Virus record (IMG/VR): IMGVR_UViG_3300005613_003813
Location: 1 to 56,632 of that record
DNA from: a virus
Taxonomy: Duplodnaviria > Caudoviricetes
Length of the DNA stretch: 56,632 nt
Reading direction: 5' to 3' (one strand)
Shown: positions 1 through 56,632 of the stretch, one piece after another
Position numbering within the stretch: the first letter of the stretch is position 1
Layout: each line of letters begins with the position of its first letter
Made by a program: the position numbers and the translations under genes
The notes under the pieces: generated by a model
Seen by the model: only the letters and a program-made list of their open reading frames with translations
Databases searched by the model: none
Told to the model about the DNA's origin: nothing

Positions 1-123
1 ATTTTCCATAACGCACGCTCCTCTGGCCAGGACGGTACTGGCCAAAACTTCTCCACCAACCAAGAAAAGGGATGCTTCATGCCGACTTCCTCGTTGTTTA
101 TCCAGTGCTTCGCCGCTCGGGAG
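1..123. repeat. Terminal direct repeat (circular assembly overlap), copy 1
   Basis: Bases 1-123 are identical to 56510-56632, and an ORF reads in frame across the join. Confidence 0.97.
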
Positions 124-875
124 TGGCGCGCCCTTGTGCGTCGATTAAGTTTGTAACTTCTCGGGGCAGCGTCTTCCCTCTCGTAATAGTTGCTGTTCTT
201 AAACAGGTGGGCGTAGTAGGTCTTCTTGTTGACTTTTACCTCTCCGCCACCCAACCAATACTTTGATCCTACCTCCAGCGGCTCATCAAAGAAAGAGGTG
301 TATTCCTTGTCCTTCAAGAGACCAACGTGTTCCATAAAATACTTACGATTGGCAAAGTAGCAACTCCCCTGAAAAGTCATCGTGTCGTCAATGACATATT
401 TTGGGTCTTTGAGCCGTTCGTAAGTCCTCTGTGGCCACTCACTGGGGAAAGTGCCAAACCCGTGGATGTTTCTCTTAGGGAATGAAAGATAGTGGTAGTC
501 TTTGATGTACCCCTTCTTACTTATCCGCCACTCGTCTAGGTTCAATGGGTAGCGTCGGGGTATCATCAACCAGTTCTCTTGACAATCCTCCGCCATAATT
601 CGGTCGTATCCTTTTCCAAACAAGCAATGAGAGTCCGTCTTCATTATGAAGTCGCCTTTGGCAACTTTAAGACCCTCATTGATAGCCTTCCTCATCCCTA
701 CATTCTTTTTTAGGTAGATTGGTTTGAGCCGCGTGTCTTTTTTAATTGGTAGGTTGGGTTGGTAGCCATCTAAGACAGGAATAACCTCAATTTCCCCCCC
801 GGAATTGTCCAAAAGGGAGTCTATCGTCCTGTGAAGCACGGGGTCTTTGTAACTAGGAATAACTACACTAAGCAT
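1..875 (-). CDS. GT-A glycosyltransferase, ppGalNAc-T (GT27)-like paralog 1; spans the circular junction (stop at 56506-56508; 292 aa)
   Basis: Manual translation, absent from the ORF track: MLSVVIPSYKDP...FIMKTDSHC (DxH)...FQGSCYFANRKYF...EVGSKYWLGGG...YYAHLFK...SWLVEKFWPVPSW...ALWKI*. Confidence 0.85.
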   Translation of the reverse strand, partial: MLSVVIPSYKDPVLHRTIDSLLDNSGGEIEVIPVLDGYQPNLPIKKDTRLKPIYLKKNVGMRKAINEGLKVAKGDFIMKTDSHCLFGKGYDRIMAEDCQENWLMIPRRYPLNLDEWRISKKGYIKDYHYLSFPKRNIHGFGTFPSEWPQRTYERLKDPKYVIDDTMTFQGSCYFANRKYFMEHVGLLKDKEYTSFFDEPLEVGSKYWLGGGEVKVNKKTYYAHLFKNSNYYEREDAAPRSYKLNRRTRARHSRAAKHWINNEEVGMKHPFSWLVEKFWPVPSWPEERALWK

Positions 876-33379: not shown

Positions 33380-34406
33380 TCTTCCTCACCCCCTCTCCAC
33401 CAACCGTTTTGTCGCTACTGGCACTGGGGGCCGGATTTTCAAGAAGTTTTGGTAGTTTTTTCTCTATTTCCGCTAATCTTTCCCCCAGGTTCCCCAGTTG
33501 GCCTGTAAGAGTAGTGACCCCCTCTTGAAGCTCTTTCACCGTCTCCCCCATTGTATCCACCTTAGAAGAGGTTTCAGAGGCAACTTTTCTGTCTGCTTCC
33601 AATTCAGAACGTAATTGACTATTGTCTACTGCCAAATTGTCAATTTTAGTATTGAGGGTTGTAGTTAGTTTGTTCACTGCCCGTTCGGTGTCCGAAGCAT
33701 GGGTGGTGAGTGCGGAAAGTTTGTTTTCCAACTCCAACGAAGCGAAAAGCTCAGCGACGGTTACAGATGTGTTCTTTTGGCTCGCATCCCACCTATCCAA
33801 TTCTTGCTTGGTTGGGTCCCTATGGTAAAGGGCTCGATAGATACTAACAATTGTGTCTCTTCTGTTCATTTCTATCTCCTCACCCCCCTCCAACGATCCA
33901 GTAGGAATCAAAACTTGACAGTTTTTATTTCCGTGCTCCTGGTTCGTTGATTGCCACATCTTCCTCCAGGGCTCGTTTTTAATTGTGACGGTATCCCCAT
34001 AGACCTTTCCTCGTAACCGGTTAGGGTCGTGACAAATAATTGTATTCGCCGTTTGGCCAAAGGCGACTACAAAATGCGGACCGTTGTACTTATCTTGTTT
34101 TTTAGGAAAGTGTCTATAGTTGACTAAGGCGACCGCAGGAAAACCCTCTTTGATTTTCTGCTTCAAGGTATCGAGACTGAAAATGTGGTGCTCGACATTT
34201 AGTCCGTACTTTCTTGAGGCAATACCCAATTTGTCAAAGGTAATGAGAGAATTAGGGGAGGCACCGGTTGCGCGGAACACTTCGTCAACAGACTTATCAA
34301 TTCCGTAGGCTGCCAACAACATTGAGACACAGGCCGGACCACAATCGTCTCGGCTTTCATTAGCGCCAACACCCCATTGGGACTTGTAGGGAACTTTAAG
34401 TTTCAC
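33315..34406 (-). CDS. Peptidase C39-like endolysin with C-terminal coiled coil
   Basis: VPYKSQ, DCGPACVSM, HFVV, HDP catalytic-triad pattern. Confidence 0.8.
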   Translation of the reverse strand: MKLKVPYKSQWGVGANESRDDCGPACVSMLLAAYGIDKSVDEVFRATGASPNSLITFDKLGIASRKYGLNVEHHIFSLDTLKQKIKEGFPAVALVNYRHFPKKQDKYNGPHFVVAFGQTANTIICHDPNRLRGKVYGDTVTIKNEPWRKMWQSTNQEHGNKNCQVLIPTGSLEGGEEIEMNRRDTIVSIYRALYHRDPTKQELDRWDASQKNTSVTVAELFASLELENKLSALTTHASDTERAVNKLTTTLNTKIDNLAVDNSQLRSELEADRKVASETSSKVDTMGETVKELQEGVTTLTGQLGNLGERLAEIEKKLPKLLENPAPSASSDKTVGGEGVRKNEHGILWDWFSSISGWFSRGR

Positions 34407-44166: not shown

Positions 44167-45420
44167 TTATGACCTCAAAAATAACGCATAAACACTCACT
44201 TCCAAATTATCACCAGGTTGACCATCGTAGAAGAAAACCGTGTTTCTCTCGATCTGTATTTTTGGAAGTTTGGCACGTTTCCAATAGCCCAATAACTGAA
44301 AATAGGTATCGGCGTAGTCCTCCGAATAAATTTCCAAGATTCGATCAGAATCTAGTGCTACTGTAGCTGTGTAGCCACTTCTACCATCAGCACCTGGGCT
44401 ACTAACATCGAAATAGCGATTAGCACTTGACCCGTTTGCTCTGATTCCGCACACCCGCGCCGCTCCGGTATCCGCGTTTTCAATGTAGAATTCGGCCGCC
44501 TCTGCCCCCGCTGGAACTACCGAAGAAATGTTCAAATCCTGCCACGTTGCGTTTGCCGAATTTTGACCTACGCCGCTGGCCTCGGTATATATTTCTCTTG
44601 TATCACAGGAGTTAATATTGGGGTCAGCAATCCTAACACCTATAATGCTAAGAAACTCGTGCCCGTCAAAAACTGGGAAAGTTGCTGTCGCGTAACCACC
44701 GCTGCTCAGATTACCAGAGTAACTTAGGGCGGCCTGAACCTGGTAGAGGTTCGTTCCGCCCAACATCGAGCCCACCTCAAAACCGTCAAAATGAAAATTG
44801 GTACCAGTCGCCGATGGGTTCTTATCTGATCGGAGAGCTACTTTTATTGTATGTTCCACATTCGGATTGAGACCTGTTTTGGTATAGACCGAGAACTTCG
44901 TCAAAAGAACCGCACTATACAAGTCAACAGTCTCATCTAAAACACCATCAATATAGACATCAATTTTGCCCATCAACTTATCCTTGGCGGCGAAGATACC
45001 AATCCTAGACATACCACGGAATGTATATTCAAGATATGGGTCTGTTAACGGATCCATTGCTAAATGGTACGACCGATTAAAGTATTGTATGTTATTCGTC
45101 GTTGAGTACCATCCCCCTGAGTAGGTAATACTAGAATCTTGATCGTCAACAATTGTTACTATCTTTTCGGATCCGACAGATCCACTATAGAGGGACGCCC
45201 CATCTATGGTAGTAAGGTCCTCCTGGCGTCTAATGTCGCCAGCTTGGGCTATATCAGGAATCCGCGCAGCGAAATCGGCACCCATTTCCTGTAACGGCTT
45301 TCGGTGTTCTAACCCATAATACTCGGCACCTTGAACTGGTCCGGAAAGAAGCCCCACGCCCTCCTGTTCGAGAAAGTTATTAAATCCTAACGATAGGTAT
45401 GTTACTCGTTCTTTTGCCAT
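44167..45420 (-). CDS. Tail protein with a galactose-binding-like (CBM-type) beta-sandwich
   Basis: VDDQDSSITYSGGW, YTFRG, VYIDG..TVDLY, FDGF pattern; start refined to MAKERV. Confidence 0.65.
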   Translation of the reverse strand: MAKERVTYLSLGFNNFLEQEGVGLLSGPVQGAEYYGLEHRKPLQEMGADFAARIPDIAQAGDIRRQEDLTTIDGASLYSGSVGSEKIVTIVDDQDSSITYSGGWYSTTNNIQYFNRSYHLAMDPLTDPYLEYTFRGMSRIGIFAAKDKLMGKIDVYIDGVLDETVDLYSAVLLTKFSVYTKTGLNPNVEHTIKVALRSDKNPSATGTNFHFDGFEVGSMLGGTNLYQVQAALSYSGNLSSGGYATATFPVFDGHEFLSIIGVRIADPNINSCDTREIYTEASGVGQNSANATWQDLNISSVVPAGAEAAEFYIENADTGAARVCGIRANGSSANRYFDVSSPGADGRSGYTATVALDSDRILEIYSEDYADTYFQLLGYWKRAKLPKIQIERNTVFFYDGQPGDNLEVSVYALFLRS

Positions 45421-46850
45421 CAATCCCAATCCTCGTGCAAGTCGTAATAAACTACAAAGCCGTAGATTTCAAATGGTTGGTCCTTAGCATTGTTAGAAAA
45501 TTCCCAACTGATGTGTTTGGCGGTTATATCCTCTGGAGAGAACTTTTTAACAATTAGGGCATCTTCTCCAAGATCGACCGTTCCGTAGGCGACATAGCTC
45601 CCGAGATCCTTTGAGACCTTGACTGTTAGAGTCGTCCCCGTTTGTTTTTTAGCAATCAGGTAAAGGGCCTTGATCGTCTTCCGGTACTCTGGGCGGTCCA
45701 TGGAGTAGTCGTTAGTTCTAAACCACCCGTTAATTGCCCCCTCGTTAAAGTTGTCGTCCTCAAAAAGTTCATAGACATTTCCGTCGTCGGCCCCCATATA
45801 GAGTTTCTGTGCCCCCGAGACAATGAACGGGGCTACAACCTTCGGAGTTACCCCATACCCCAACGGGACCCAAGTATTCCCCACAATATCGTAATCGAAG
45901 CCCGCCTGGTTGATACTTTTGGTAGATAGGTCATCAACGAACCAGTAGGCGTGTGTCCCTAAAGGAGCCCCGCAAACATTGGCCAGCTTTGTCTGATCAA
46001 TGTCTTGGGTATAGTCCTCAATCTTGTTAGAGATCCTTGTTGAAACCACCCCGTCGTAGACATAAAAACCGGTTCGGTTGAAGTAAAAGGTGAAACGATC
46101 AACGGTAAATACCTGTTTTGGGGAGTGGGTCCCCGGAGCCCCGTGCACCCTTTCCAAACCAACTCCTTTGGCGGAGCATCGCCACAAAGAACTATCAGTG
46201 AAAATTAACAACTGATCTCCACTTACTGCACAAGCAGTTAAAGGCTCAGAAGAAGGAATATGGAAATAGTTGTTAGCATTATCCCAACTGATACTATCAT
46301 CTGAGGCCGGAAGGTCCGAATAATAGACGGTTGCCCTATTAGTTGAACGACCAACGATATAAAGTTGATTTTTAAAGAGCTCAATATCCTTTCCTTTGGG
46401 GGCGCTGGTTACATTGGTAGTAGTTGAGTAAGTCAGTCCTTGTAGGGAAGCAGTTGCATCGTCGTCATTTACCATAAAAACATAATCAACCATTGCGAAG
46501 TAGGCAAACTCCATTTGCGAGCTGGCTGTTAAGGCATCAGCTCCGGAGATACTCGTCCAGGTGCCCGCGTTGTTATATTCCAGCCCCGAGGCCGTATCTC
46601 CAGAATTATTAACTACCGCCAGCTGTCTGGTTGTACCCCCAACTTGCTGGTAATCGAACAGCCCCAAAATGTCCTTGTCCGCCTGTAGGGTATCTCCAAC
46701 CTTGGTGTATCCTTTGGCCTTTTTAACCGTGCCAATTTCCGAAAGGTCAATGTTTTGGGCCGCCTTCAATTCCTCAGCGGGCTTCAAAAAGTTTGAGACC
46801 TTAGAGTTGACCCCTTGAAAATTCATTACCGCAAAACGCTTTTGAGCCAT
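45420..46850 (-). CDS. Tail nozzle / DNA-stabilisation beta-propeller protein (P22 gp10-like)
   Basis: Beta-propeller-type motifs (VYYSD, LLIFTD, GFYVYDG, RISNKI); follows the adaptor. Confidence 0.7.
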   Translation of the reverse strand: MAQKRFAVMNFQGVNSKVSNFLKPAEELKAAQNIDLSEIGTVKKAKGYTKVGDTLQADKDILGLFDYQQVGGTTRQLAVVNNSGDTASGLEYNNAGTWTSISGADALTASSQMEFAYFAMVDYVFMVNDDDATASLQGLTYSTTTNVTSAPKGKDIELFKNQLYIVGRSTNRATVYYSDLPASDDSISWDNANNYFHIPSSEPLTACAVSGDQLLIFTDSSLWRCSAKGVGLERVHGAPGTHSPKQVFTVDRFTFYFNRTGFYVYDGVVSTRISNKIEDYTQDIDQTKLANVCGAPLGTHAYWFVDDLSTKSINQAGFDYDIVGNTWVPLGYGVTPKVVAPFIVSGAQKLYMGADDGNVYELFEDDNFNEGAINGWFRTNDYSMDRPEYRKTIKALYLIAKKQTGTTLTVKVSKDLGSYVAYGTVDLGEDALIVKKFSPEDITAKHISWEFSNNAKDQPFEIYGFVVYYDLHEDWD

Positions 46851-46852
46851 AA

Positions 46853-47542
46853 TTACCTCCTCGGACCGAAGTCCAAACCCTGCCCCGAAAGATCAGTTGT
46901 CAATCTGACTCCCTCAGCAACCCGGTCCTCCAACTCTGACTGCATCCTCTCTCGCTCCTCTTGATACATCCGCTCAAACATCGCCGAACCCTGTAAATCC
47001 CGTTTCCCCTTCATCAAAGCATCGGCACAGGTTCCAATAGAAATTAATCGGTGGTACTGGGCCGGGATTGCCGGCTCGTCGTCGTCATCCGAAAGGTCAT
47101 CCTGTTCGGCGATGTACCAAATCTTCAATGCCGCAGTCCCGTCTTTGTCTGGGATAGGTAAAAAGCCAAGAATATCTCCCTGAATATAATAAGAAGGAAG
47201 GGCCGCAACCCCAAGATCGTCGTTTTCAAGCCTTGTTTGGACATCATCAAGACTGATAGAAGTCGCCTTTTTGAAATTATCGGCGTTGCTGGTTATATCA
47301 TAGTTGAGCTCAACCCGACGCATCCTCTTAAAATCGGAGGGTAGGGTGTATTCCTGCTGGTCCTCATTCATATCAGCAGTCGCTTCGGTTATAAAGTAGT
47401 TTTCGAATACCGTTTCGATCGCCGTTACCAAATCTTGGTAACGGTGATTCATCCAGACCAATAGCTGAGCATCCGTCCAAAAGGCGGCGGTTGTCTCGTT
47501 TAGTCTGGCCCTAATATCAGTAATTATGGTCGCTTTGGTCAT
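46853..47542 (-). CDS. Head-tail adaptor protein
   Basis: IRARLNE, YTLPSDF, FLPIPD, IPAQYH pattern. Confidence 0.75.
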   Translation of the reverse strand: MTKATIITDIRARLNETTAAFWTDAQLLVWMNHRYQDLVTAIETVFENYFITEATADMNEDQQEYTLPSDFKRMRRVELNYDITSNADNFKKATSISLDDVQTRLENDDLGVAALPSYYIQGDILGFLPIPDKDGTAALKIWYIAEQDDLSDDDDEPAIPAQYHRLISIGTCADALMKGKRDLQGSAMFERMYQEERERMQSELEDRVAEGVRLTTDLSGQGLDFGPRR

Positions 47543-47635: not shown

Positions 47636-50600
47636 TTAATAACTCAACCCGCTTGTCACCTTTGTCCAGGTTGTAGCATCGTTGGTTTGCTTTGTCCAAT
47701 TCGTGGGGGACGGGGAGGGCGAAATTGACGGACTGATTGACGGGCTGATAGACGGACTAAGCGACGGAGATATAGATGGCGATAAGGATGGCGATAAGGA
47801 CGGACTCAAAGATACCGATGGCGAAACACTAGGACTAATACTTGGGCTTAAAGACGGCGAAAGGGACGGGCTAATCGAAGGACTAAGCGACGGACTTATG
47901 GACGGCGACAAGGACGGACTGAGCGAAGGTGAAATTGACGGGCTTAGACTCGGTGAAATTGATGGACTCAACGACGGTGACAATGACGGACTTAAACTAG
48001 GCGATAAACTTGGAGACAACGACGGTGATAGCGACGGGCTAATAGACGGCGATAAAGACACACTCGGACTAACACTAGGACTGATGGAGGGGCTTAGAGA
48101 CGGGCTTATACTAGGTGAAATTGATGGACTAAGCGACGGAGAAATTGACGGACTTATGCTTGGTGAAATACTGGGCGATATGGACGGGCTAATTGACGAT
48201 GAGATACTAGGTGAGGGGGACGGACTAAGTGACGGCGAAAGCGATGGGCTTAATGACGGTGAAAGGGACGGGCTGATAGAGACCGATGGGCTAACGCTTG
48301 GCGAAATCGAGGGACTGATTGATGGCGAAATAGACGGCGATAAGCTCGGTGAAATAGACGGGCTTAGGGATGGCGATAAACTTGGAGATAAACTAACGCT
48401 AGGGCTGACCGACGGACTGATACTTGGGCTTAGAGATGGGCTGATAGACGGGCTAATCGAGGGCGAAAGTGATGGACTTAAACTTGGTGAAAGTGATGGA
48501 CTTAAACTTGGTGAAAGTGATGGACTTAACGACGGTGATAATGATGGGCTAATACTCGGCGACAGCGACGCCGAGGGTGAAACACTAGGTGAAATTGACG
48601 GACTGATTGACGGACTAACACTGGGTGAGAGCGAGGGGGATAGAGATACGCTCGGGCTTACACTCGGACTGATTGACGGCGACAAAGACGGCGATAATGA
48701 CAGACTCAACGATGGCGATAATGACGCACTCGGTGAGACTGAAGGCGAAATACTCGGTGAGATTGACGGGCTCAAACTAGGCGACAGTGACGGCGAGAGC
48801 GATGGGGATATACTAGGGCTAATAGATGGGCTTAGAGACGGGCTTAGTGATGGTGATAGTGAGCCGCTCGGCGAAACACTGGGGCTAATAGACGGCGAGA
48901 TTGACGGGCTGAGTGATACTGAGGGGCTCACCGACGGACTAATACTAGGTGATAAGGACGGGCTCAAACTAGGCGATAACGAGGGGCTTATGCTCGGCGA
49001 TAGACTTGCTGATGGAGAGACCGACGGCGATATACTAAGAGAAATACTCGGACTGATACTGGGACTTATCGAAGGTGACAAAGACGGCGACAAGGAAGGA
49101 CTCAAACTCGGACTGATACTAGGCGAAATGGATGGACTCAGACTGACGCTAGGTGATACCGATGGACTAATCGAGGGGCTAATACTGGGTGAAATACTAG
49201 ACGACAGACTGGGCGAAATACTAGGACTTAAAGACACGCTCGGACTCACCGACGGTGAAATACTTGGGCTAATACTTGGACTCAAAGATGGCGATAGCGA
49301 AGGGGAGAGCGATACTGAGGGACTGACAGATGGCGATGTACTTGGACTTATTGATGGGCTCAATGATGGTGAAATAGACGGGCTGATACTAGGACTTAGC
49401 GATGGTGACAGACTCGGAGACAGACTAGGTGAAATACTCGGCGATAGCGAAACACTCGGCGATACCGACGGGCTAATACTTGGCGAGATTGATGGCGACA
49501 AGGATGGGCTGATAGATGGGCTTAGAGAAACCGATGGACTCACCGAGGGAGAGATGGATGGCGAAATTGATGGGCTCAAAGACGGAGAGATACTCGGTGA
49601 AATACTTGGTGAAAGAGACGGGCTAATCGACGGGCTTATTGACGGCGATACCGATGGAGAGATAGAAGGTGAGATGCTAGGCGATAGGGAGGGGCTTAAC
49701 GACGCCGACGGAGATACACTCGGGCTAATTGACGGACTGATGCTCGGACTTAGGGAAGGAGAGATACTAGGGCTAATACTTGGGCTTATACTAGGACTAG
49801 CCGACACTACTTCATAAGTTACTGCAAGATATGGGTCTTTAGAGGTATCGACCTTTTCAGACGTGAACGGTATAACACGTGAGCGTTTATCGGTTTCTCC
49901 AGGGTCGCCAGGGAAATTATCCTCAATATCGTGTCCCTCTCTTAACCCCAACATTGTTGTTCCTGTTAAAGAAATCCAACCCCTACCAGTTGCATTTAGG
50001 GTAAAATCTTCATAGGCTACAGTGCCTAAACCACTCAGGTCTATATCTGCTGACCCCTTAACTGCCAAATATTTAGCTCTCCCTCCTTCCTCATTTCCAC
50101 TATCGTAACCGCAATCCTCATAATCTGCGTTGGCTAACGCAGAAGTAGATGCTTGAAATGTTTTAACTACTGCTACATAGTCATAACCGTCACCATTGTA
50201 ACCATCACTTACGGAACCAGGATATAATTTAAGAATAGCTGCCGAGATAACGGCGGCGTCATCTAGTCCAGAAGTATCTATTGGAAAGAATCCTCGGTAT
50301 ATCTGAGTCTTATTAGCTGACCCCAAAAGGCTAGAACTAATCGCTGTGTCGACATAATCTAAAGCAGTATCATCCCCCTCGCTAGCATCGTGGACGGTGT
50401 CCCAAGTTGCCTGAGAGGGCTGACCTGACGCGTCCATTCTAACTCGCCCGTCCCCCGCCCCTGCATAGTAGTTTGTAGTGGTGTCTGTCCTCACTGGATA
50501 AACAGCGTTTTCTAAGAACCTTTTGTCTAAGATTTTAGTCAGAATTGTCTTGCCGTCTATTTCTTCTAGTCGGACTTTGATTATTCCTTGATTACCTTCG

Positions 50601-51343
50601 GCATCGGTGAGGTTAAACTTTCTAAACCAAGTCTTTCTAAGTTTCTTGAGGATTATACTGTCTGAAGTGGTTAGTTTGTCTTGCTTATTCCAAGTATCCC
50701 TCTCTAAATCATCCTCCCACCTTTCCTCCTCTTTGCGTCTTGTTTTGTCGTTCTTGAATTTCTTGAGTGCTTTTATCTTTTTGGCACGCAGATTTCTAAA
50801 ATTCTCTTTCTTTGGTTTGACTTCAAATCCGTCTAAAGCGACTTCAAAACTAAACTCCAAATCCTTGCTCAAATCAGCGGGTTTTTCGTTAATAACAATC
50901 TCTTTGACAAATCCCGTGTTCCGAGCCATTACCTCAAGGTCAATACCCGCACCATAGGCGTTCTTATAAAGAACTATTCCCTTACCTTTCCACTCTGGTT
51001 TGGAGATTAGCTTCCCCGTAGCGGGTAAAACATTTAGGGGCTTGATAGAGACTTCTTCGTCTGGTTTGTCCCAATCTTCTCCAGTTCGGGGGTCAACTTG
51101 AACAGTGTTGATAAACTTGAACCAATCGTTTGCTAGTTTGGGGATTTCTAGTTCGTAGTTGTTCTTCCGCATCTCCCAACCGTAATCGGTGGGAAGGAAC
51201 ATACAATCTACATTCTCGAACTTTCTGGTTTTTTTGTCTTTGTAGTGGATATGACCAACGTGACCCTCAAAGGTCATTGACCCGTCTTTATTATCAAAGG
51301 TCTTTGAGTTTAGAGTTCGTAAATCCCTAGCTTCGTTTCTCAT
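47636..51343 (-). CDS. Mucin-like fibre/adhesin (1235 aa): WapA-N-like region, DNRLRE/CBM96-like domain, about 700-aa Ser-Pro stalk, short Trp-Thr tail
   Basis: RTLNSKTF..DGS..IHY and YPV motifs; RGFFPIDTSGL...ISAAILKLY...PYLAVTY; (SPS[ILV])n; TNWTKQTNDATTWTKV. Confidence 0.8.
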   Translation of the reverse strand: MRNEARDLRTLNSKTFDNKDGSMTFEGHVGHIHYKDKKTRKFENVDCMFLPTDYGWEMRKNNYELEIPKLANDWFKFINTVQVDPRTGEDWDKPDEEVSIKPLNVLPATGKLISKPEWKGKGIVLYKNAYGAGIDLEVMARNTGFVKEIVINEKPADLSKDLEFSFEVALDGFEVKPKKENFRNLRAKKIKALKKFKNDKTRRKEEERWEDDLERDTWNKQDKLTTSDSIILKKLRKTWFRKFNLTDAEGNQGIIKVRLEEIDGKTILTKILDKRFLENAVYPVRTDTTTNYYAGAGDGRVRMDASGQPSQATWDTVHDASEGDDTALDYVDTAISSSLLGSANKTQIYRGFFPIDTSGLDDAAVISAAILKLYPGSVSDGYNGDGYDYVAVVKTFQASTSALANADYEDCGYDSGNEEGGRAKYLAVKGSADIDLSGLGTVAYEDFTLNATGRGWISLTGTTMLGLREGHDIEDNFPGDPGETDKRSRVIPFTSEKVDTSKDPYLAVTYEVVSASPSISPSISPSISPSLSPSISPSISPSVSPSASLSPSLSPSISPSISPSVSPSISPSISPSLSPSISPSISPSLSPSISPSISPSVSPSVSLSPSISPSLSPSISPSISPSVSPSVSLSPSISPSLSPSLSPSLSPSISPSISPSLSPSISPSTSPSVSPSVSLSPSLSPSLSPSISPSISPSVSPSVSLSPSISPSLSSSISPSISPSISPSVSPSVSLSPSISPSISPSLSPSLSPSLSPSISPSISPSISLSISPSVSPSASLSPSISPSLSPSLSPSLSPSISPSVSPSVSLSPSISPSISPSVSPSGSLSPSLSPSLSPSISPSISPSLSPSLSPSLSPSISPSISPSVSPSASLSPSLSLSLSPSLSPSISPSVSPSVSLSPSLSPSVSPSISPSISPSVSPSASLSPSISPSLSPSLSPSLSPSLSPSLSPSLSPSLSPSISPSISPSLSPSISPSVSPSVSLSPSLSPSLSPSISPSLSPSISPSISPSISPSVSPSVSISPSLSPSLSPSLSPSLSPSPSPSISSSISPSISPSISPSISPSISPSLSPSISPSISPSLSPSISPSVSPSVSLSPSISPSLSPSLSPSLSPSLSPSLSPSLSPSISPSLSPSISPSLSPSLSPSISPSLSPSISPSLSPSLSPSISPSVSPSVSLSPSLSPSLSPSISPSLSPSISPSISPSISPSPSPTNWTKQTNDATTWTKVTSGLSY
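47705..49798 (-). repeat. Degenerate 12-bp coding repeat encoding Ser-Pro-Ser-(Ile/Leu/Val)
   Basis: About 2.1 kb; protein-level tetrapeptide repeat with strongly varied synonymous codons. Confidence 0.97.
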
Positions 51344-52304
51344 TTTCCTCCTCCTCCAACTTCTTCAAATCCTCATCTGACCAACCTGGAACTGGCCAGA
51401 ACTTCTCTACCAGCCAAGAGACTGGGTATTTCTGCTTCGGCCATTTCATACCCCACAACAAATCTCTGACGTTTTTCTTAGTTCTCAACTGATCTCTACC
51501 GGAATTGGGCCAAGGGAATTTGAGATTTGCGTTGGTTCTAAACATATGCGCGTACCAAGTATTATGATTAACTAACACCCTCCCCCCGGAGAGCCAAGTC
51601 TTACAAGCAACCTCTATCCCCTGATTACCCCACGACCCCATACTCTCATCACACAAGTTGAGCTCGTTGTATTTCTTCCTAGTAACCATAAAGAAACTTC
51701 CTTGTAAACTCATCGTCTCCGTTAAACCTTCTTTCTTACCTTCAATGTATTGTGGTCGTTTTGTGTATTCCCTGAAATACTTAAATTGTGGGGTAGCGTT
51801 GAAACAGTAAGACGTACTCCGAACGTGGGGCCGAGGCCCCCACACCACCTTCCTCCTCATATACCTCGAATCGCCGCACTGAGGACACCTTCCGCCCTCT
51901 TTCCAATTGGCCTGATAAACCCTGAAACCGCACCGGTGGCATTTCCAATCAAATACATGTAGATTGCGCATTACCGGAACCATAACTACGTCGCCCCCTA
52001 CCTTCTCAAACATTTCAATCATCTTGCGGTCGAACCCCTGGTCAAAAGCACAATGAGCGTCTACTTTTGCCACATACTTACCCTTAGCAATTTTACAAGC
52101 AAGGTTAGTAGCGGCTCTTTGTCCAATGCTTTCGGGGACGTAGATGACATTCACTCGCGGGTGCTGGGGTATCGGGGGATCGGCCCATTCTCCGTCAAGA
52201 ACAGCAATCACTTCGGTATCCGCCTCGATGTGTTCGAGGATGTCTTGAATGGTTCGCGCGAGCCACATTTCGTTTCTTGCGGGAATTAAAATACTCAGAT
52301 CCAT
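51327..52304 (-). CDS. GT-A glycosyltransferase, ppGalNAc-T (GT27)-like paralog 3
   Basis: LSILIPARNE, KVDAHC (DxH), QGSFFM..DESMGSWGNQGIEVACKTWLSGG..YAHMFR..FPWP; internal CxxC-CxxC. Confidence 0.88.
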   Translation of the reverse strand: MDLSILIPARNEMWLARTIQDILEHIEADTEVIAVLDGEWADPPIPQHPRVNVIYVPESIGQRAATNLACKIAKGKYVAKVDAHCAFDQGFDRKMIEMFEKVGGDVVMVPVMRNLHVFDWKCHRCGFRVYQANWKEGGRCPQCGDSRYMRRKVVWGPRPHVRSTSYCFNATPQFKYFREYTKRPQYIEGKKEGLTETMSLQGSFFMVTRKKYNELNLCDESMGSWGNQGIEVACKTWLSGGRVLVNHNTWYAHMFRTNANLKFPWPNSGRDQLRTKKNVRDLLWGMKWPKQKYPVSWLVEKFWPVPGWSDEDLKKLEEEENEKRS

Positions 52305-53050
52305 TTCTTGTTCCTCTCTAACATTGCTTTAGTAATTTCCGGTTCGTATCCTACAGACTCTGCCCACGCACGCCACCCATAAACATCTTTGGGGATACAT
52401 TTTGAGTTGAACCCCCGGCTACTAGGAAATACGAACGTCCACCAGAGGTTAAACCGCGGATCGTCGCCGTAAACAACGTCCCTAATGGTGTAGTAGTCGA
52501 CTCCTGCCCTTTCGCAAACATCGTAGAGCTCCTGGCACTGCGCCACTTTAAAAGCTATTGCCCTATTCTCGCTGAGTTTTATCACTTCGGCCTCCAATCT
52601 GCTAACCTGTCGGATGCTTATGTTGGCGTTGTATGTAGTGGTGTATAAATCTATCAACCTCCGCCGATCTTCTGGCTCGCCACCGATTACCAGGAACTTT
52701 CTTTGCTTTGGGTCAAATAGTGGGTGCTCCACCGTTTCACCAAGATACTCCGGCTGTACTACAATTCTCTTCCCATACTTTTTGGCTAAATAGTCTCCAG
52801 TCCCGGGGCTGATCGCTGACCTTATCACAATCAGCGGACACCCGCACCAGGAAACGCACTCTTCAACAATAGACATATCCAAAGACCCGTCCTCCAAATT
52901 AGGGGTAGGGACGCAAACGAAGGCAACATCCCGCTTATTGACCTCCTCCTTGGTTGTTTCTGAGTAAGCTATATCGTAAATGTAGGCGTCAGGAAACAGT
53001 TTCTCTACCGCCTTCCCAACCCAACCGTGACCAATTATCGCTACTGTCAT
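52295..53050 (-). CDS. UDP-glucose/GDP-mannose dehydrogenase family protein (short form)
   Basis: IIGHGWVG, FVCVPTP, PEYL, AEVIKL, GFNSKCIPKD; lacks the C-terminal domain. Confidence 0.85.
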   Translation of the reverse strand: MTVAIIGHGWVGKAVEKLFPDAYIYDIAYSETTKEEVNKRDVAFVCVPTPNLEDGSLDMSIVEECVSWCGCPLIVIRSAISPGTGDYLAKKYGKRIVVQPEYLGETVEHPLFDPKQRKFLVIGGEPEDRRRLIDLYTTTYNANISIRQVSRLEAEVIKLSENRAIAFKVAQCQELYDVCERAGVDYYTIRDVVYGDDPRFNLWWTFVFPSSRGFNSKCIPKDVYGWRAWAESVGYEPEITKAMLERNKKWI

Positions 53051-53778
53051 AGGTTCTCCTCAGGTACTTTCAAACCAAATAACCCCCGCAAATCCCAACC
53101 TGGGATATTCTCTATCGGTATTTCCCGCCAATACTCTGGTTTGTGTTTGAAGCTGTCCAAAGTTATCTTCGGCTTGGAGAAAGTTCTGTCGTGGCGAATA
53201 TCAACCACAGGGTATTCAGAATACCAGACACCAAAGTTATCATCCGAAAAGCCCCCCCGCCTCTTCTTTTTAGTCCCAGGTTCGTAACCCCACAATCTAG
53301 CCCAGCGAGGTTCTCTACTTCTAAACTTGTTCAGCCCAACCTTCTCTATATGCTCCTCCCTTAGTTTGTAGTGCTCCAAAGCAAACTCTCGATTGACAGA
53401 CAAACAAGAAAGAGGAAGCATCCTTTTGTGAGTAATAGCGGTATCCCCCCCGAAGTACCACCGCCAGACATTAGAGTTGTAATAGAAGATATTATCTTCG
53501 GGCGGGGTAAATTCAAAGTGCGATTCTGGGTACAGGCAGTCGTGCTCGCAGAAAAACACGTAATCGGCAGTGCTGTTCTCCAGAGCCGTTTTTATCTGCT
53601 TAATATAGGTAGGGTAACTCCGTTCGCCTTGAACAACGATATTCTTTCCAAAGTCCAGCGGCTTCTTGAGGGACACACTAACAATCGGCAAACCCGACTT
53701 CTTTATGTGCCCCTGAACAACAGGGAAGATTGGTTTACCCAACCTCATGTCCGTGTAGAAAATTACGCCCTTGCTCAT
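53047..53778 (-). CDS. GT-A-like glycosyltransferase (paralog of 54439-55143)
   Basis: LPIVSVS, FFCEHDCLYP, FxP, YYNSN shared with the neighbouring paralog. Confidence 0.65.
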   Translation of the reverse strand: MSKGVIFYTDMRLGKPIFPVVQGHIKKSGLPIVSVSLKKPLDFGKNIVVQGERSYPTYIKQIKTALENSTADYVFFCEHDCLYPESHFEFTPPEDNIFYYNSNVWRWYFGGDTAITHKRMLPLSCLSVNREFALEHYKLREEHIEKVGLNKFRSREPRWARLWGYEPGTKKKRRGGFSDDNFGVWYSEYPVVDIRHDRTFSKPKITLDSFKHKPEYWREIPIENIPGWDLRGLFGLKVPEENL

Positions 53779-54452
53779 TCTTTAACCCACATCCACGAGC
53801 GCCACTTGTCTCGCTTTTCCTCAATACCATTGTGTGCTATCACGCCAGGACGAACCCTCTCACCAGGAGGATTTTTCCTACCAAGAACATACCAATTCGT
53901 TATCCCGAACGCTTTAACATAGGCATGGAGGACATACTTAACGTGGAGAACGTTCGGGTCTCGGGCGCCCTTCTTGTTCAGGGCGTAGTCGTGTCCCGCA
54001 ATAATGCCGCCCTTCTTGACCTTGAGAGGCCACTCGTAAAGGTCTTCGGCGACATAGCGAAACCCGTGATGTCCGTCGATGTAGACGAAGTCCAAACTCT
54101 CATCCTCGAAGTCTTTGACGGCATCCATCGAGGTCTTACGCACTATCACCGCTAGGTCCCCATAGGGTTCAAATACCCGCTTAGTGTGTTCGTAGAGAAA
54201 GTCCTGCCGCTTTTGAAACCCACCAGGGTAGTTCCTATCATTGTAGTTGCCGTATGCCTTCCAGGGGTCAACCGCATACATCTTAAGACCTTCTTTCAAG
54301 AACTCCTCAGTGTATTCTCCCTTGTAGGTTCCAATCTCCGCACCAACCTTGAAGCCCATCTCTTTGAACGCTTTTGGTAAATCGTTCCTCCCGCAGTCGG
54401 GAATTTCAAAGGGTTGCCCACGATGATTTTTGATTGCTTCAGTTATTTTCAT
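53775..54452 (-). CDS. Class I SAM-dependent methyltransferase (Methyltransf_24-like)
   Basis: AEIGTYKG, AVDPW, LDFVYIDGHH, KKGGIIAGHDY. Confidence 0.9.
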   Translation of the reverse strand: MKITEAIKNHRGQPFEIPDCGRNDLPKAFKEMGFKVGAEIGTYKGEYTEEFLKEGLKMYAVDPWKAYGNYNDRNYPGGFQKRQDFLYEHTKRVFEPYGDLAVIVRKTSMDAVKDFEDESLDFVYIDGHHGFRYVAEDLYEWPLKVKKGGIIAGHDYALNKKGARDPNVLHVKYVLHAYVKAFGITNWYVLGRKNPPGERVRPGVIAHNGIEEKRDKWRSWMWVKE

Positions 54453-55143
54453 CTATATTCTGATACACCTCTTTCACTCCCTCCATATACTTTTCCCTAG
54501 TTTCTTTACCGTCGCCCCAATAGGGCAAGGTGTGAATTGGTTTACGCTCGCTGTCGGTATAATATCTCATTGAGCGGTGGGTTTTAATTTGAAAGACGGG
54601 GTTCTCCGTCTCAAACATTTCTATCTGGTTTGGCCAGAATACATCCGACCTGCGGTGCCTCTCTTTAGGAAAATTCTTTTCCTCGGCACTCCACTGCGGG
54701 GCGCCCTCAAATAATTTCTCTAGAGTATTGAGATAAAACACCCTCCCAATCACCTGTGAGTGGGTCGCCCCCCCTGGTTTGTGAAACCAGTAACTGCGGT
54801 GGTCGGGCATCACGTAAAGATTGGAGTTGCGGTAGCAGCGGTCGTCTCTCGACGGGGTGTATTCAAAGTAGTCGGGCGGGTAGAGGCAGTCGGCCTCGGC
54901 GGAGACCACAAACTTTGTTTTAGCGTGCTCGCAAGCAATCTGAGTTTGGCGAAAGAAGTTAAACCCCGAAACCCCGACATCGTCTCCAACGCAAATGTTA
55001 GTCCCAAAGTCAATCGGTTTTTGGGTAACACTAATGATTGGCAAACCTCCACAGTTCTTGAGGATATTGTCTCTTATCCGCTGTTCAAACTTCGGGTCCT
55101 CCATATTGCTACTGCAGTAAATTATAGTTTTCATATCTTCCAC
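54439..55143 (-). CDS. GT-A-like glycosyltransferase (paralog of 53047-53778)
   Basis: LPIISVTQKP, SAEADCLYP, YRNSN. Confidence 0.65.
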   Translation of the reverse strand: MEDMKTIIYCSSNMEDPKFEQRIRDNILKNCGGLPIISVTQKPIDFGTNICVGDDVGVSGFNFFRQTQIACEHAKTKFVVSAEADCLYPPDYFEYTPSRDDRCYRNSNLYVMPDHRSYWFHKPGGATHSQVIGRVFYLNTLEKLFEGAPQWSAEEKNFPKERHRRSDVFWPNQIEMFETENPVFQIKTHRSMRYYTDSERKPIHTLPYWGDGKETREKYMEGVKEVYQNIDENN

Positions 55144-55922
55144 CTCGGTCGAATATCATTCTCGTAGTAATCCCCCCAAACCTTCAAGGCGTAGAGCCCG
55201 CTCTCGTTCCTAATAGACGGGTTCTCCTTTGTACCTTCGTGACGACCCTTAACAAAAGAGCGGTGCTTGTGAGCAAACCAAGTATCCTTATCAACAATCA
55301 ACCGACCCCCCGCTTTCCAGGTCTTGAAGACAATTTCGTGGCTGTCTTGGTACATTTGTCCATACCCCTTGGTCTGGAGTTCTCCAATTACATCCTCCCA
55401 CCACTTCTTGGGCATTAGCCACATCGAACCCTGCATCGCCATCGACTCAACCAGGTTTCTGTCTTTGTATTTTTCGTCCCTCTCTTTCCACCTCATCCCT
55501 GCAAATTTCCTCCCGCCTTGAATAACCAACTTCTCGGTTATCACGGGTTCTAAGTCCATCCTCTCCCACTTTTCGGGGTCAAGGAAATATCTGGTAGCCG
55601 TCATTATCCAGTTCGGTTTACAGTCTCTGGTTAGCACTCTGTCGTATCCCTTGCCAAACATACAGTGTTGGTCGGAGCGGAGGATGAATTCTCCCCCTGC
55701 TAATTGGACACCTGCGTTTATAGCCCCCCTCATACCCCTATTTGCCCCGAGGTGGGCGTAGATGACTCTTGGATCGTCTGGTAGTTCGAAATCGGGCCAG
55801 AAACCATCGAGGACAACAATTATTTCCATCTGGTCTCCCAATTCTGAGTTTTCCAACAAGGAGTTAATCGTTGGAACTACATAGGGATCTTTGTAGGCAG
55901 GGATTACACAACTCAATTTCAT
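55131..55922 (-). CDS. GT-A glycosyltransferase, ppGalNAc-T (GT27)-like paralog 2
   Basis: LSCVIPAYKDP, RSDQHC (DxH), MQGSMW, EIVFKTWKAGG, WFAH. Confidence 0.85.
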   Translation of the reverse strand: MKLSCVIPAYKDPYVVPTINSLLENSELGDQMEIIVVLDGFWPDFELPDDPRVIYAHLGANRGMRGAINAGVQLAGGEFILRSDQHCMFGKGYDRVLTRDCKPNWIMTATRYFLDPEKWERMDLEPVITEKLVIQGGRKFAGMRWKERDEKYKDRNLVESMAMQGSMWLMPKKWWEDVIGELQTKGYGQMYQDSHEIVFKTWKAGGRLIVDKDTWFAHKHRSFVKGRHEGTKENPSIRNESGLYALKVWGDYYENDIRPRWKI

Positions 55923-56518
55923 TTTCTAACCACCACTAATTTATTGTTACGGAACTTCTTCGGAGTAAACCCAACCACCTCAACTTTATAATCACTCAAA
56001 GCCCGTGAGATTTTTCTTGTCCACTCGGTATCTTCAATTATATAGGTAACGCCGTCATCCAACAATGGGAGGAGTGTTTGAGCGAGAAAAATCTGGTGGG
56101 GGGACCTATGGGAGCCGTCATCAACAAACAGATCAATATCCGAGCCCGCCTGCTCTACCAACCGTTCAATATCTTCTTTTTTAGTTTCGTCGCAGAGGAA
56201 GGTTTTAATCCGCTCGTCCTCAAACAGCGTATCTGGGCGGATGTCCGCCCCATAGATTTGGGCATTGGGGAAGAAGTCCCGCCACATTTTTAAACTAGCG
56301 CCGCGTTTGTATTTCCTTTTTAATTGGTTGTCCCAGACCTCACTAACGTGCTTCATACAACCGTAGTAACCAATACCCATCTCTAAGACCTTTTTGACTT
56401 CGCTTCGTTTGTCTTTGAAGAGTTTGTAGTAATAGGGGGTATAGGAGTGCTTAATCTGAGGGCATTTGTCGGTGCCGTATTTGTACGCAATTTCACAAAG
56501 TTCGGTTAGATTTTCCAT
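55919..56518 (-). CDS. Sugar O-methyltransferase (MycE/TylE-like)
   Basis: YGTDK..HSY, LEMGIG, GASLKMWRDFFP, VDDGSH, YIIED; start refined to MENLTE. Confidence 0.8.
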   Translation of the reverse strand: MENLTELCEIAYKYGTDKCPQIKHSYTPYYYKLFKDKRSEVKKVLEMGIGYYGCMKHVSEVWDNQLKRKYKRGASLKMWRDFFPNAQIYGADIRPDTLFEDERIKTFLCDETKKEDIERLVEQAGSDIDLFVDDGSHRSPHQIFLAQTLLPLLDDGVTYIIEDTEWTRKISRALSDYKVEVVGFTPKKFRNNKLVVVRK

Positions 56519-56632
56519 AACGCACGCTCCTCTGGCCAGGACGGTACTGGCCAAAACTTCTCCACCAACCAAGAAAAGGGATGCTTCATGCCGACTTCCT
56601 CGTTGTTTATCCAGTGCTTCGCCGCTCGGGAG
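56510..56632. repeat. Terminal direct repeat (circular assembly overlap), copy 2
   Basis: Identical to 1-123. Confidence 0.97.

What the first reader, a model, noticed from the sequence alone, without database searches (positions are those of the whole stretch)
47636..56632. Candidate phage-encoded mucin-type O-glycosylation system inside the virion operon
Seen: on the circular map, between the capsid and adaptor genes, the order is GT, two small structural ORFs, GT(DxH), MTase, GT(DxH), GT-A, MTase, GT-A, nucleotide-sugar dehydrogenase, GT(DxH), then a 1235-aa protein with about 700 aa of SPS[ILV] (roughly half Ser). The eight enzyme genes from 875 down to 51327 and the repeat gene overlap end to start. 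The three paralogous GTs have DSHC/DQHC/DAHC, and the best one reads GSFFM..DESMGSWGNQGIEVACKTWLSGG..AHMFR..FP. Known: eukaryotic polypeptide GalNAc-transferases (GT27), which start mucin glycosylation on Ser/Thr near Pro, carry a DSHC-type DxH motif and a WGGEN.E.S.R.W.CGG...GH.FR motif. Inference: the phage encodes both a mucin-like substrate and the enzymes that build a methylated O-glycan brush on it, giving a stiffened or shielded virion appendage. I know of no described phage system with this enzyme-substrate pairing, but could not search.
Basis: partly seen in the sequence, partly recalled or inferred. Interest (0 to 1): 0.93.

Follow-up and report, generated by a model that had tools for sequence, protein, structure and literature searches.

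The report
Phage serine-repeat fibre with mucin-type glycosyltransferases
A complete 56.5-kb uncultivated phage carries soluble enzymes that most resemble the animal enzymes that start mucin sugar chains, placed directly in front of a fibre gene in which every second residue is serine for 700 residues, so the phage probably sugar-coats its own fibre, although no sugar has been measured.

Summary
The window is a complete circular phage genome (56,509 bp plus a 123-bp end overlap). Eight enzyme genes and a 1,235-aa gene overlap end to start between the capsid and tail-module genes. The 700-aa repeat has Ser at every second position (350 of 350), written with all six Ser codons.

The three DxH transferases are closest to polypeptide GalNAc-transferases (GT27). 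A family profile against PDB gives its 14 best hits to GT27 (E 5e-17 to 3e-12). The predicted fold matches GalNAc-T1 at Z 27.2, against 18.6 for the best other glycosyltransferase.

- 26 of 32 enzyme-seeded loci with at least 2 kb downstream hold a Ser-X repeat gene on the same strand.
- 84 of 85 capsid-seeded relatives have neither feature, and one has both.
- A complete relative (capsid 63% identical) lacks both.

Glycosylation itself is inferred, not shown. One listed "GT" (1585-2301) has no detectable transferase signature and lies outside the cassette.

Seven literature searches found no description. Phage virion glycosylation is known from mycobacteriophages. This scan has already noted the same pairing on 14 other genomes (unpublished AI notes).

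The parts
47636..51343 (-). Fibre gene, 1,235 aa: N-terminal globular part (1-513), Ser-X repeat (514-1213), 22-aa C-terminal tail
   Evidence: ORF; the only Ser-X ORF of the genome; no signal peptide or TM-like segment
49805..51343 (-). N-terminal globular region of the fibre (513 aa), beta-rich, with a CBM96-like lead
   Evidence: AlphaFold2 pLDDT 83.4. BFVD Foldseek matches uncharacterised viral proteins (TMq 0.55) and CBM96-domain phage proteins over ~225 columns. ESM Atlas neighbours carry CBM96 in 54-59% of members. 21 homologues carry other C-terminal domains (Laminin_G_3, Beta_helix, NosD) and 0 of 21 have a Ser-X repeat.
47705..49804 (-). 700-aa (Ser-X)350 repeat, X = P/L/I/V: the proposed O-glycan acceptor stalk
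   Evidence: Ser at 350 of 350 alternate positions, 154 SPS[ILV] units, six Ser codons mixed; no long DNA-level tandem array.
51327..52304 (-). GT-A, GT27-like glycosyltransferase (DAHC, ...AHMFR), with a four-Cys zinc-ribbon-like insert at residues 118-148
   Evidence: PF00535. PDB phmmer best hit GalNAc-T1, E 1.8e-7. Profile E 5e-17. AlphaFold2 pLDDT 94.9. Foldseek: all listed matches (ranks 1-50) are ppGalNAc-Ts. VIA Z 27.2 to 8v9q.
52295..53050 (-). Short UDP-glucose 6-dehydrogenase-like protein (251 aa) that lacks the C-terminal UDP-binding domain
   Evidence: Pfam UDPG_MGDP_dh and _N. NCBIfam NDP-sugDHase E 1e-28. It aligns to residues 85-314 of the 444-aa 3vtf chain with the catalytic Cys motif kept. 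It is fused to GT-A in L061.
53047..53778 (-). Protein C, probably a GT-A-fold transferase, paralogue of E
   Evidence: No Pfam match. ESM Atlas structure neighbours are GT2-type clusters, TM 0.62-0.86. C is 26-41% identical to E homologues in the loci and is fused to GT-A in seven loci: L035, L041, L043, L046, L065, L066, L068.
53775..54452 (-). Methyltransf_24 methyltransferase (sugar O-methyltransferase type, inferred)
   Evidence: PF13578, E 2e-13
54439..55143 (-). Protein E, paralogue of C
   Evidence: No Pfam match. Homologues of 22-67% identity lie in most related cassettes.
55131..55922 (-). GT-F, GT27-like glycosyltransferase (DQHC)
   Evidence: PF00535, E 4e-11. Paralogue of GT-A. 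Forms its own orthologous group of 21 rows, support 99.
55919..56572 (-). Second methyltransferase
   Evidence: phrog_21658 methyltransferase, E 9e-12. Weak Methyltransf_24 and FtsJ matches below the Pfam cut-off.
1..875 (-). GT-H, GT27-like glycosyltransferase (DSHC), 292 aa. Its last codons wrap to 56506-56509 on the circle; 56510-56632 repeats 1-123.
   Evidence: PF00535, E 3e-15. PDB best hit is a polypeptide GalNAc-transferase (6s22), E 5e-6, aligned over residues 48-229.
56510..56632 (.). 123-bp terminal overlap (copy of 1-123) that closes the circle
   Evidence: the IMG/VR record is classed as having direct terminal repeats

Best explanation
This is a phage-encoded protein O-glycosylation module with its own substrate.

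Late in infection one translationally coupled operon makes three kinds of product:
- three soluble GT27-like transferases (GT-A, GT-F, GT-H);
- two probable GT-A-fold transferases (C and E), two methyltransferases and a short UDP-sugar dehydrogenase-like protein;
- a fibre protein whose 700-residue stalk has Ser at every second position.

In the host cytoplasm the GT27-like enzymes are proposed to use their Asp-x-His...His metal site to put the first sugar on the stalk serines. The other transferases would extend it and the methyltransferases would O-methylate the sugars. The result would be an extended, protease-shielded bottle-brush stalk on a virion appendage.

Shown here: the gene anatomy, the strict Ser alternation, the enzymes' nearest relatives, their solubility, and the co-occurrence of enzymes and repeat genes. 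Inferred: the acceptor, the sugars, the order of the steps and the effect on the virion.
For: Enzyme identity.
- A profile of 38 family members against PDB gives its 14 best hits all to GT27 ppGalNAc-Ts (E 4.7e-17 to 2.8e-12). The next hits, chondroitin synthase and GT2 enzymes, cover only the N-terminal half.
- The alignment places DAHC on DAHC of GalNAc-T1 and AHMFR on GHVFR. D82 and H84 are invariant and H253 is at least 90% conserved in the 38 sequences.
- The AlphaFold2 model has pLDDT 94.9. All listed Foldseek matches (ranks 1-50) are ppGalNAc-Ts.
- In an exhaustive alignment to 48,161 chains, GalNAc-T1 scores Z 27.2 (rmsd 2.6, 268 residues) and Toxoplasma GalNAc-T3 scores Z 25.3. The best other glycosyltransferase scores 18.6.
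- Curated bacterial GT2 families match only at E 4e-6 or worse, far below their cut-offs.
- No cassette protein has a TM-like segment; the highest 19-residue hydropathy is 1.37.

Coupling.
- The junctions from the first methyltransferase through GT-A to the fibre gene overlap by 4-17 nt.

Co-occurrence.
- Of 37 loci seeded by GT-A alone, 32 have at least 2 kb downstream. 26 of those 32 hold a Ser-X ORF of 40 residues or more, always on the GT-A strand. In 14 of 32 it is the first large ORF after GT-A.
- Of 32 loci seeded by a fibre C-terminal domain: 22 have repeat and enzyme, 6 have the repeat only, 0 have the enzyme only, and 4 have neither (Fisher p 0.006; 0.02 after removing duplicates).
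- Of 85 capsid-seeded relatives (827 kb without the one positive locus), 84 have neither feature and 1 has both.
- G002 is a complete relative (capsid 63% identical). It has no GT27-like gene and no Ser-X ORF, and it carries a 1,096-aa non-repeat ORF in the same slot.
- Gene fusions in relatives link GT-A to the dehydrogenase (L061) and to C (seven loci).

Selection on the repeat.
- Ser fills 350 of 350 alternate positions, written with scrambled codons.
Against: No sugar, glycopeptide or enzyme activity has been observed. Everything rests on homology and gene neighbourhood.

Identity to GT27 is only 13-19% in the structural alignments. The ricin-type lectin domain and the membrane anchor of GT27 are absent.

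Exceptions to the pairing:
- 6 of the 32 GT-A-seeded loci lack a Ser-X ORF. L016 has 9 kb downstream without one. L059, L060 and L065 instead carry three tandem 373-aa Ser/Thr-rich paralogues. L015 and L024 are short.
- L050 has Ser/Thr-repeat fibres and other sugar genes but no GT27-like gene within reach, even by profile search.

The loci are related phages, so the counts are not phylogenetically independent.

A strictly alternating Ser/hydrophobic sequence could also be a self-assembling structural element that needs no sugar.

The dehydrogenase lacks its UDP-binding domain, so its activity is uncertain.
Confidence: 0.6

Rival explanations
1. The enzymes glycosylate other virion proteins (capsid, decoration or tail proteins), or many proteins at once. 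The Ser-X fibre is merely co-inherited as part of the same accessory module, and its stalk is an unglycosylated spacer or a self-assembling rod.
For: The cassette lies in the virion operon next to the capsid genes. In L059, L060 and L065 the cassette is followed by non-repeat Ser/Thr-rich paralogues, and in L004 and L024 by a 237-aa Thr/Ala/Ser-rich protein. Mycobacteriophages glycosylate capsid and tail-tube C-termini (passages seen).
Against: In the fibre-domain-seeded loci the enzyme is never present without a repeat gene (0 of 32). The 4 loci whose fibre lacks the repeat also lack the enzyme. Capsid relatives of 55-65% identity keep the capsid and its neighbours without the cassette, so the capsid module does not need it. 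GT-A overlaps the fibre start codon by 17 nt.
Confidence: 0.17
2. The cassette builds or alters a non-protein glycan: a free or lipid-linked polysaccharide, a host surface glycan (as in serotype conversion), or sugar-hypermodified phage DNA.
For: PF00535 is dominated by polysaccharide and lipid-acceptor enzymes (recalled, not from a call). Phage glycosyltransferases that modify DNA or host serotype are known (passage in PMC12619734). The genome has a second sugar cluster outside the virion operon.
Against: No cassette protein has a TM-like segment. No flippase, polymerase or priming transferase family appeared among the 10 cassette-region proteins scanned against Pfam. Bacterial GT2 equivalogs match only weakly. 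The nearest solved relatives act on peptides. The tight link to Ser-X genes is unexplained by this reading.
Confidence: 0.08
3. The Ser-X tract is not translated as read. It would be a DNA repeat artefact or a shadow frame, and the neighbouring enzymes would be unrelated to it.
For: The opposite strand also carries a 711-aa open frame over the repeat (47682-49817).
Against: The Ser-X frame runs on from a 513-aa domain that folds with pLDDT 83. In relatives it continues into a conserved 130-aa C-terminal domain. The DNA is not a clean tandem array, and Ser is kept with six codons.
Confidence: 0.02

Closest known systems
Eukaryotic polypeptide N-acetylgalactosaminyltransferases (CAZy GT27; e.g. 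mouse GalNAc-T1 1xhb/8v9q, human GalNAc-T2, Toxoplasma GalNAc-T3)
   Same: GT-A catalytic fold, with by far the best structural match (Z 27.2 and 25.3). DxH motif plus a downstream His in an HxFR context, and a W-G-..-E-..-W-..-GG stretch aligned to the Gal/GalNAc-T motif. The proposed acceptor is rich in Ser next to Pro.
   Different: Only 13-19% identity. No ricin-type lectin domain and no membrane anchor. A four-Cys insert at residues 118-148. Cytoplasmic, phage-encoded setting. Donor sugar unknown. The acceptor has no Thr and a strict Ser-X period.
Serine-rich repeat glycoproteins (SRRPs) of Gram-positive bacteria
   Same: Long tracts of alternating Ser dipeptides form a stalk beside a globular binding region. 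SRRPs are heavily O-glycosylated by dedicated enzymes (passages of PMC12355684). Some related phage fibres carry SASESAS-type repeats very like SRRPs (L011, L020, L022, L025).
   Different: No signal peptide, accessory Sec system or cell-wall anchor. The SRRP initiating pair GtfA/GtfB (GT-B fold; recalled, not from a call) is replaced here by GT27-like GT-A-fold enzymes. The product would be a virion part, not a cell-surface adhesin.
Virion glycosylation of mycobacteriophages (Che8 and relatives; Freeman et al. 2023)
   Same: Phage-encoded glycosyltransferases modify the phage's own structural proteins and form a glycan shield (as cited in PMC12619734 and PMC11256854).
   Different: There the glycans sit on short C-terminal tails of the capsid and tail-tube subunits. 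Here there is a dedicated 700-residue repeat acceptor and GT27-like enzymes. The original paper is not held, so its enzyme families could not be compared.

Membership tests
CAZy GT27 (polypeptide GalNAc-transferases) | GT-A catalytic domain that is closest in fold to known GT27 enzymes | tested here: met
   All listed Foldseek matches (ranks 1-50) are ppGalNAc-Ts. VIA Z is 27.2 and 25.3 for GT27 representatives against 18.6 for the next family.
CAZy GT27 (polypeptide GalNAc-transferases) | DxH motif and a third His as Mn2+ ligands (Asp209, His211, His344 in mouse GALNT1; PMC4202792 passage) | tested here: met
   DAHC aligns with DAHC, and the His of AHMFR with the His of GHVFR of GalNAc-T1. 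D82 and H84 are invariant and H253 is at least 90% conserved in 38 sequences. Metal binding itself was not tested.
CAZy GT27 (polypeptide GalNAc-transferases) | Significant sequence similarity across the whole catalytic domain (the basis of CAZy membership) | tested here: inconclusive
   Profile E 4.7e-17 in two stretches, with the strongest similarity in the C-terminal half. Identity is 13-19%. No dbCAN or CAZy model was available, and no tree with eukaryotic sequences was built.
CAZy GT27 (polypeptide GalNAc-transferases) | C-terminal ricin-type lectin domain (PMC4202792 passage) | tested here: not met
   GT-A, GT-F and GT-H are 325, 263 and 292 aa and match only PF00535.
CAZy GT27 (polypeptide GalNAc-transferases) | Type II membrane anchor and lumenal location (recalled) | tested here: not met
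   The highest 19-residue hydropathy of the three enzymes is 0.58-0.80.
CAZy GT27 (polypeptide GalNAc-transferases) | Transfer of GalNAc from UDP-GalNAc to Ser/Thr of a peptide | not testable with these tools
   Needs an enzyme assay.
Serine-rich repeat protein (SRRP) glycosylation systems | Hundreds of residues of alternating-Ser dipeptide repeats | tested here: met
   Ser at 350 of 350 alternate positions over 700 residues.
Serine-rich repeat protein (SRRP) glycosylation systems | Signal peptide, accessory Sec export and cell-wall anchor (recalled) | tested here: not met
   No hydrophobic N-terminus or C-terminal anchor in the fibre. No Sec family appeared among the 30 proteins scanned against Pfam.
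Serine-rich repeat protein (SRRP) glycosylation systems | GtfA/GtfB-type initiating pair (recalled) | not tested
   Two GT4-type genes lie elsewhere in the genome (21043-22032 and 22243-23406; PF00534). They were not compared with GtfA.
Bacterial polysaccharide or lipid GT2 enzymes (PgaC, NodC, TuaG, MftF and the like) | A score above the curated family cut-off | tested here: not met
   The best match is E 3.7e-6 at 26 bits against a cut-off of 280, covering only the N-terminal ~100 residues.

The most novel reading that the evidence does not exclude
A large, unpublished clade of phage (and ultra-small-bacterium) enzymes is the prokaryotic sister, or even the source, of the eukaryotic initiators of mucin-type O-glycosylation. 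With them, phages would build true mucin- or extensin-like bottle-brush glycoprotein fibres in the bacterial cytoplasm. In this genome the supply may include a plant-type RGP/UDP-arabinose mutase homologue and five Methyltransf_24 methyltransferases, so the glycan may contain methylated sugars and arabinofuranose.
Probability: 0.25. Interest if true: 0.9.

Novelty: new variant of a known kind. Interest (0 to 1): 0.7.

Why it matters
If the stalk is glycosylated, this would be a second and very different mode of phage virion glycosylation. It would use a dedicated repeat acceptor and GT27-like enzymes, and it is spread over thousands of environmental sequences: GT-A has 5,311 homologues at E 0.001 or better in the 5.8-billion-protein search.

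It would give a bacterial-cytoplasm route to mucin-like glycoproteins. It would supply a tractable soluble relative of ppGalNAc-Ts without a lectin domain. It would also open a handle on where the eukaryotic mucin-initiating enzymes came from.

For phage biology it bears on how fibres are stiffened, how they are shielded from proteases, and how they are made to bind or avoid host glycans.

Tried and rejected
Searches that gave nothing or had to be changed.
- The 38-sequence alignment was too diverse for the search for related loci (error), so I used the single protein instead.
- The single capsid sequence found only 6 loci, so I built a 6-sequence alignment and rescanned.
The context of the nearest fibre relative P0271 was reached instead through the search for related loci, the genome search and the fetch from genomes. 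That phage (G001) is unrelated apart from the fibre N-domain and has neither the enzyme nor a repeat.
- Foldseek of the fibre N-domain against PDB gave no clear fold (TMq 0.25 or less).
- Pfam gave nothing for the fibre, and the PHROG hits lay only on the low-complexity part.
- ORF 1585-2301 had no match anywhere.

Prolyl hydroxylase. I looked for one, because it would point to Hyp-linked glycans. None appeared among the 30 window proteins scanned against Pfam. Ten further proteins were scanned against PHROGs only, and smaller ORFs not at all, so absence is not shown.

Tree. The careful tree did not finish; the quick tree is reported.

Literature. Seven searches found no paper that pairs GT27-like phage enzymes with Ser-repeat fibres. 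Freeman et al. 2023 (PMC10527164) is not held, and supplements were not opened.

Not run: complex prediction, the look-up of sequencing runs, read laying and the RNA tools.

Rejected readings: DNA-repeat artefact, polysaccharide synthesis and DNA modification (see the rival explanations).

Full report
WHAT IS THERE

The first 123 bases of the window equal the last 123. The record is a complete circular phage genome of 56,509 bp, which IMG/VR classes as having direct terminal repeats and 100% completeness. All genes of interest lie on the minus strand.

In transcription order they are:
- portal 4641-6749, scaffold-like 3418-4152 and major capsid 2491-3363 (phrog_267, E 2e-47);
- ORF 1585-2301 and two small ORFs;
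- GT-H, which runs 875..1 and wraps by four bases;
- a methyltransferase (55919-56572), GT-F (55131-55922), E (54439-55143), a methyltransferase (53775-54452), C (53047-53778), a dehydrogenase (52295-53050) and GT-A (51327-52304);
- a 1,235-aa gene (47636-51343);
- virion-module genes 46853-47542 and 45420-46850 (phrog_399, phrog_3287).

The junctions from the first methyltransferase through GT-A to the long gene overlap by 4-17 nt. GT-H overlaps that methyltransferase as well. This is the picture of one translationally coupled operon.

Pfam confirms PF00535 in GT-A, GT-F and GT-H, the two UDP-glucose/GDP-mannose dehydrogenase domains, and Methyltransf_24. C and E have no Pfam match. An ESM Atlas structure comparison puts C near GT2-type clusters, mostly viral (TM 0.62-0.86).

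THE REPEAT

Residues 514-1213 of the long protein have Ser at 350 of 350 alternate positions. The positions in between hold Pro 165, Leu 76, Ile 71, Val 29 and nine others. There are 154 SPS[ILV] units.

All six Ser codons are used, 22 to 92 times each. Tandem Repeats Finder sees only short, degenerate arrays. The periodicity is therefore kept by selection on the protein, not by recent DNA duplication.

The frame is real. It runs on from a 513-residue domain that folds with pLDDT 83. In relatives the same kind of repeat continues in frame into a conserved 130-residue C-terminal domain. The 711-aa frame on the plus strand is a shadow of the repeat.

The N-terminal region resembles uncharacterised viral proteins and CBM96-type carbohydrate-binding modules of phage depolymerases. 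Its 21 sequence homologues carry lectin-like or beta-helix C-terminal parts instead of a repeat. This is the modular build of a phage fibre or spike. Which end sits on the virion, and whether on head or tail, is not settled.

THE ENZYMES

phmmer of GT-A against all PDB sequences gives 15 polypeptide GalNAc-transferases before any other enzyme (best E 1.8e-7). GT-H gives the same picture.

A profile of 38 family members raises this to E 4.7e-17. The 14 best hits are all GT27. The following hits (chondroitin synthase, GT2 enzymes) cover only the N-terminal nucleotide-binding half.

The alignments place DAHC on DAHC, and the His of AHMFR on the His of GHVFR of GalNAc-T1. These are the positions given as Mn2+ ligands in a review passage (PMC4202792). 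D82 and H84 are invariant and H253 is nearly invariant in the family.

The AlphaFold2 model of GT-A is confident (pLDDT 94.9). All listed Foldseek matches (ranks 1-50) are ppGalNAc-Ts. In an alignment against 48,161 representative chains, mouse GalNAc-T1 scores Z 27.2 (rmsd 2.6 over 268 residues) and Toxoplasma GalNAc-T3 scores Z 25.3. The best other glycosyltransferase reaches 18.6.

Curated bacterial GT2 families such as PgaC, NodC, TuaG and MftF match only weakly and only at the N-terminus.

The enzymes are not plain GT27 members either:
- identity is 13-19%;
- there is no lectin domain and no membrane anchor;
- GT-A has a conserved four-Cys insert.

The family is large but distinct. It has 5,311 homologues in the 5.8-billion-protein search, the 120 listed being mostly 63-79% identical. 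Only 1,327 cluster representatives match in the 1.84-billion library.

A quick tree separates a GT-A group (32 rows, support 100) and a GT-F group (21 rows, support 99). GT-H-like sequences form a grade. Cassettes therefore keep anciently diverged paralogues side by side.

CO-OCCURRENCE

I defined a Ser-X ORF as one with at least 40 residues covered by 40-residue windows in which 85% or more of alternate positions are Ser.

(a) Loci seeded by GT-A only: 25 from IMG/VR and 12 from GTDB genomes.
- 19 of 25 and 8 of 12 hold a Ser-X ORF.
- Of the 32 loci with at least 2 kb after GT-A, 26 hold one, always on the GT-A strand. In 14 it is the first ORF of 150 aa or more after GT-A.
- L008/L010 and L059/L060 are near-identical pairs.
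- The six misses are L015 and L024 (short), L016 (9 kb downstream, none), and L059, L060 and L065, where three tandem 373-aa Ser/Thr-rich paralogues follow instead.

(b) Loci seeded by the conserved fibre C-terminal domain, which is independent of the enzymes: 32 loci.
- 22 have both repeat and enzyme, 6 have the repeat only, 0 have the enzyme only, and 4 have neither.
- Fisher p is 0.006. After dropping six contigs already in set (a) and two near-duplicates it is 0.02.
- Five of the six repeat-only loci have under 2.3 kb upstream.
- The sixth, L050, has Ser/Thr repeats and other sugar genes but no GT27-like gene, even by profile search.

(c) Loci seeded by the capsid protein: 85 loci. 84 have neither feature (827 kb). 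The one with both is the contig of L033.

Relatives with 55-65% capsid identity run capsid, ORF 1585-2301 homologue, small ORFs and adaptor-like gene without interruption. In the window, the cassette plus fibre is therefore an inserted accessory module, and ORF 1585-2301 belongs to the capsid module rather than to the cassette.

Five of the capsid relatives were searched whole with the enzyme profile, and none matched. One of them, G002, is complete (50,853 bp, terminal repeats, capsid 63% and portal 49% identical). It has no Ser-X ORF, and a 1,096-aa non-repeat ORF sits in the slot where the window has cassette and fibre.

Gene fusions in relatives join GT-A to the dehydrogenase (L061) and to C (seven loci).

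The repeat can be extreme: L068 encodes 2,615 residues, of which 2,329 are Ser-X.

These loci are related to one another, so the counts show a strong association, not independent events.

MECHANISM

The best reading is cytoplasmic O-glycosylation of the stalk serines. The GT27-like enzymes would initiate. C, E and perhaps the GT4 enzymes elsewhere in the genome would extend. The Methyltransf_24 enzymes would methylate the sugars.

The genome invests heavily in sugar chemistry. A second cluster holds a GalE-like epimerase, an RGP/GT75-like protein split by a LAGLIDADG intein (PF03214, E 4e-31), three more Methyltransf_24 genes and two GT4-type genes.

The cassette dehydrogenase is UDP-glucose-dehydrogenase-like with the catalytic Cys motif kept. 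It ends before the UDP-binding domain, and this short form is conserved in relatives.

Steps shown: anatomy, enzyme kinship, solubility and co-occurrence. Steps inferred: acceptor, donor sugars, order of action and consequence for the virion.

COMPARISON WITH KNOWN SYSTEMS

The enzymes work like GT27 initiators but fail two GT27 features, the lectin domain and the membrane anchor.

The substrate is closest in style to the serine-rich repeat adhesins of Gram-positive bacteria, which are heavily O-glycosylated (PMC12355684 passages). It lacks their export and anchoring signals, and their GT-B-type initiating enzymes (recalled) are not what sits beside it.

Phage virion glycosylation as such is known from mycobacteriophages, where glycans sit on capsid and tail-tube C-termini (Freeman et al. 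2023; seen only as cited in passages; the paper itself is not held).

Seven literature searches found no description of GT27-like phage enzymes paired with Ser-repeat fibres.

EARLIER NOTES OF THIS SCAN

After my own analysis I looked up earlier notes. The same pairing has been noted on 14 other genomes in the two look-ups; 12 of those notes carry a follow-up with the same reading, and two concern ultra-small (CPR) bacteria. These are unpublished AI notes, not independent evidence. They agree with what I tested here.

VERDICT

I rate it a new variant of a known kind, with interest 0.7.

Noticed in passing
They belong to the capsid module. ORF 1585-2301 has no detectable family.
   Followed up: partly
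window 16513-18537: RGP/GT75-type protein (PF03214, E 4e-31) interrupted by an intein with a LAGLIDADG endonuclease. It sits in a second sugar cluster with a GalE-like epimerase, three Methyltransf_24 genes and two GT4-type genes (14700-23406).
   Followed up: partly
window 7344-9785: The 813-aa terminase-like gene (Terminase_3C at residues 632-766) carries a homing-endonuclease/LAGLIDADG segment at residues 253-317. This is probably a second intein in the genome.
   Followed up: no
window 52295-53050; L061:788-2740: The dehydrogenase is a conserved short form (about 250 aa) of UDP-glucose dehydrogenase without the UDP-binding domain. In L061 it is fused to GT-A in one 650-aa protein.
   Followed up: partly
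window 51327-52304, residues 118-148: GT-A carries a four-Cys zinc-ribbon-like insert (CxxC...CxxC) that is conserved in the family consensus. No counterpart was seen in the aligned GalNAc-transferases.
   Followed up: no
L068:11845-19692: A 2,615-aa protein with 2,329 residues of strict Ser-X alternation directly follows a GT-A/C fusion gene, on a contig binned as Candidatus Collierbacteria.
   Followed up: no
L059, L060 (about 11100-14500); L065 (about 6300-9700): In three loci from genomes labelled Gammaproteobacteria, the cassette is followed by three tandem 373-aa Ser/Thr-rich paralogues instead of a Ser-X repeat protein, and then by bacterial-looking genes. This may be another acceptor type or an integrated element.
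   Followed up: partly
L014:13470-13871 and 31 other loci: A conserved fibre C-terminal domain of about 130 aa follows the Ser-X repeats in many relatives. The window's fibre lacks it and ends in a 22-aa tail with two W-T-K motifs, which resembles the C-terminus of a 237-aa protein in L004 and L024.
   Followed up: partly
window 47682-49817 (+): A 711-aa open frame on the opposite strand of the repeat; it is a shadow ORF of the repetitive coding sequence.
   Followed up: partly
window 33315-34406 and 24252-24806: A Peptidase_C39-like domain fused to a coiled-coil region, and a DPBB lytic-transglycosylase-like protein. Both are probably lysis or virion-associated wall enzymes.
   Followed up: no
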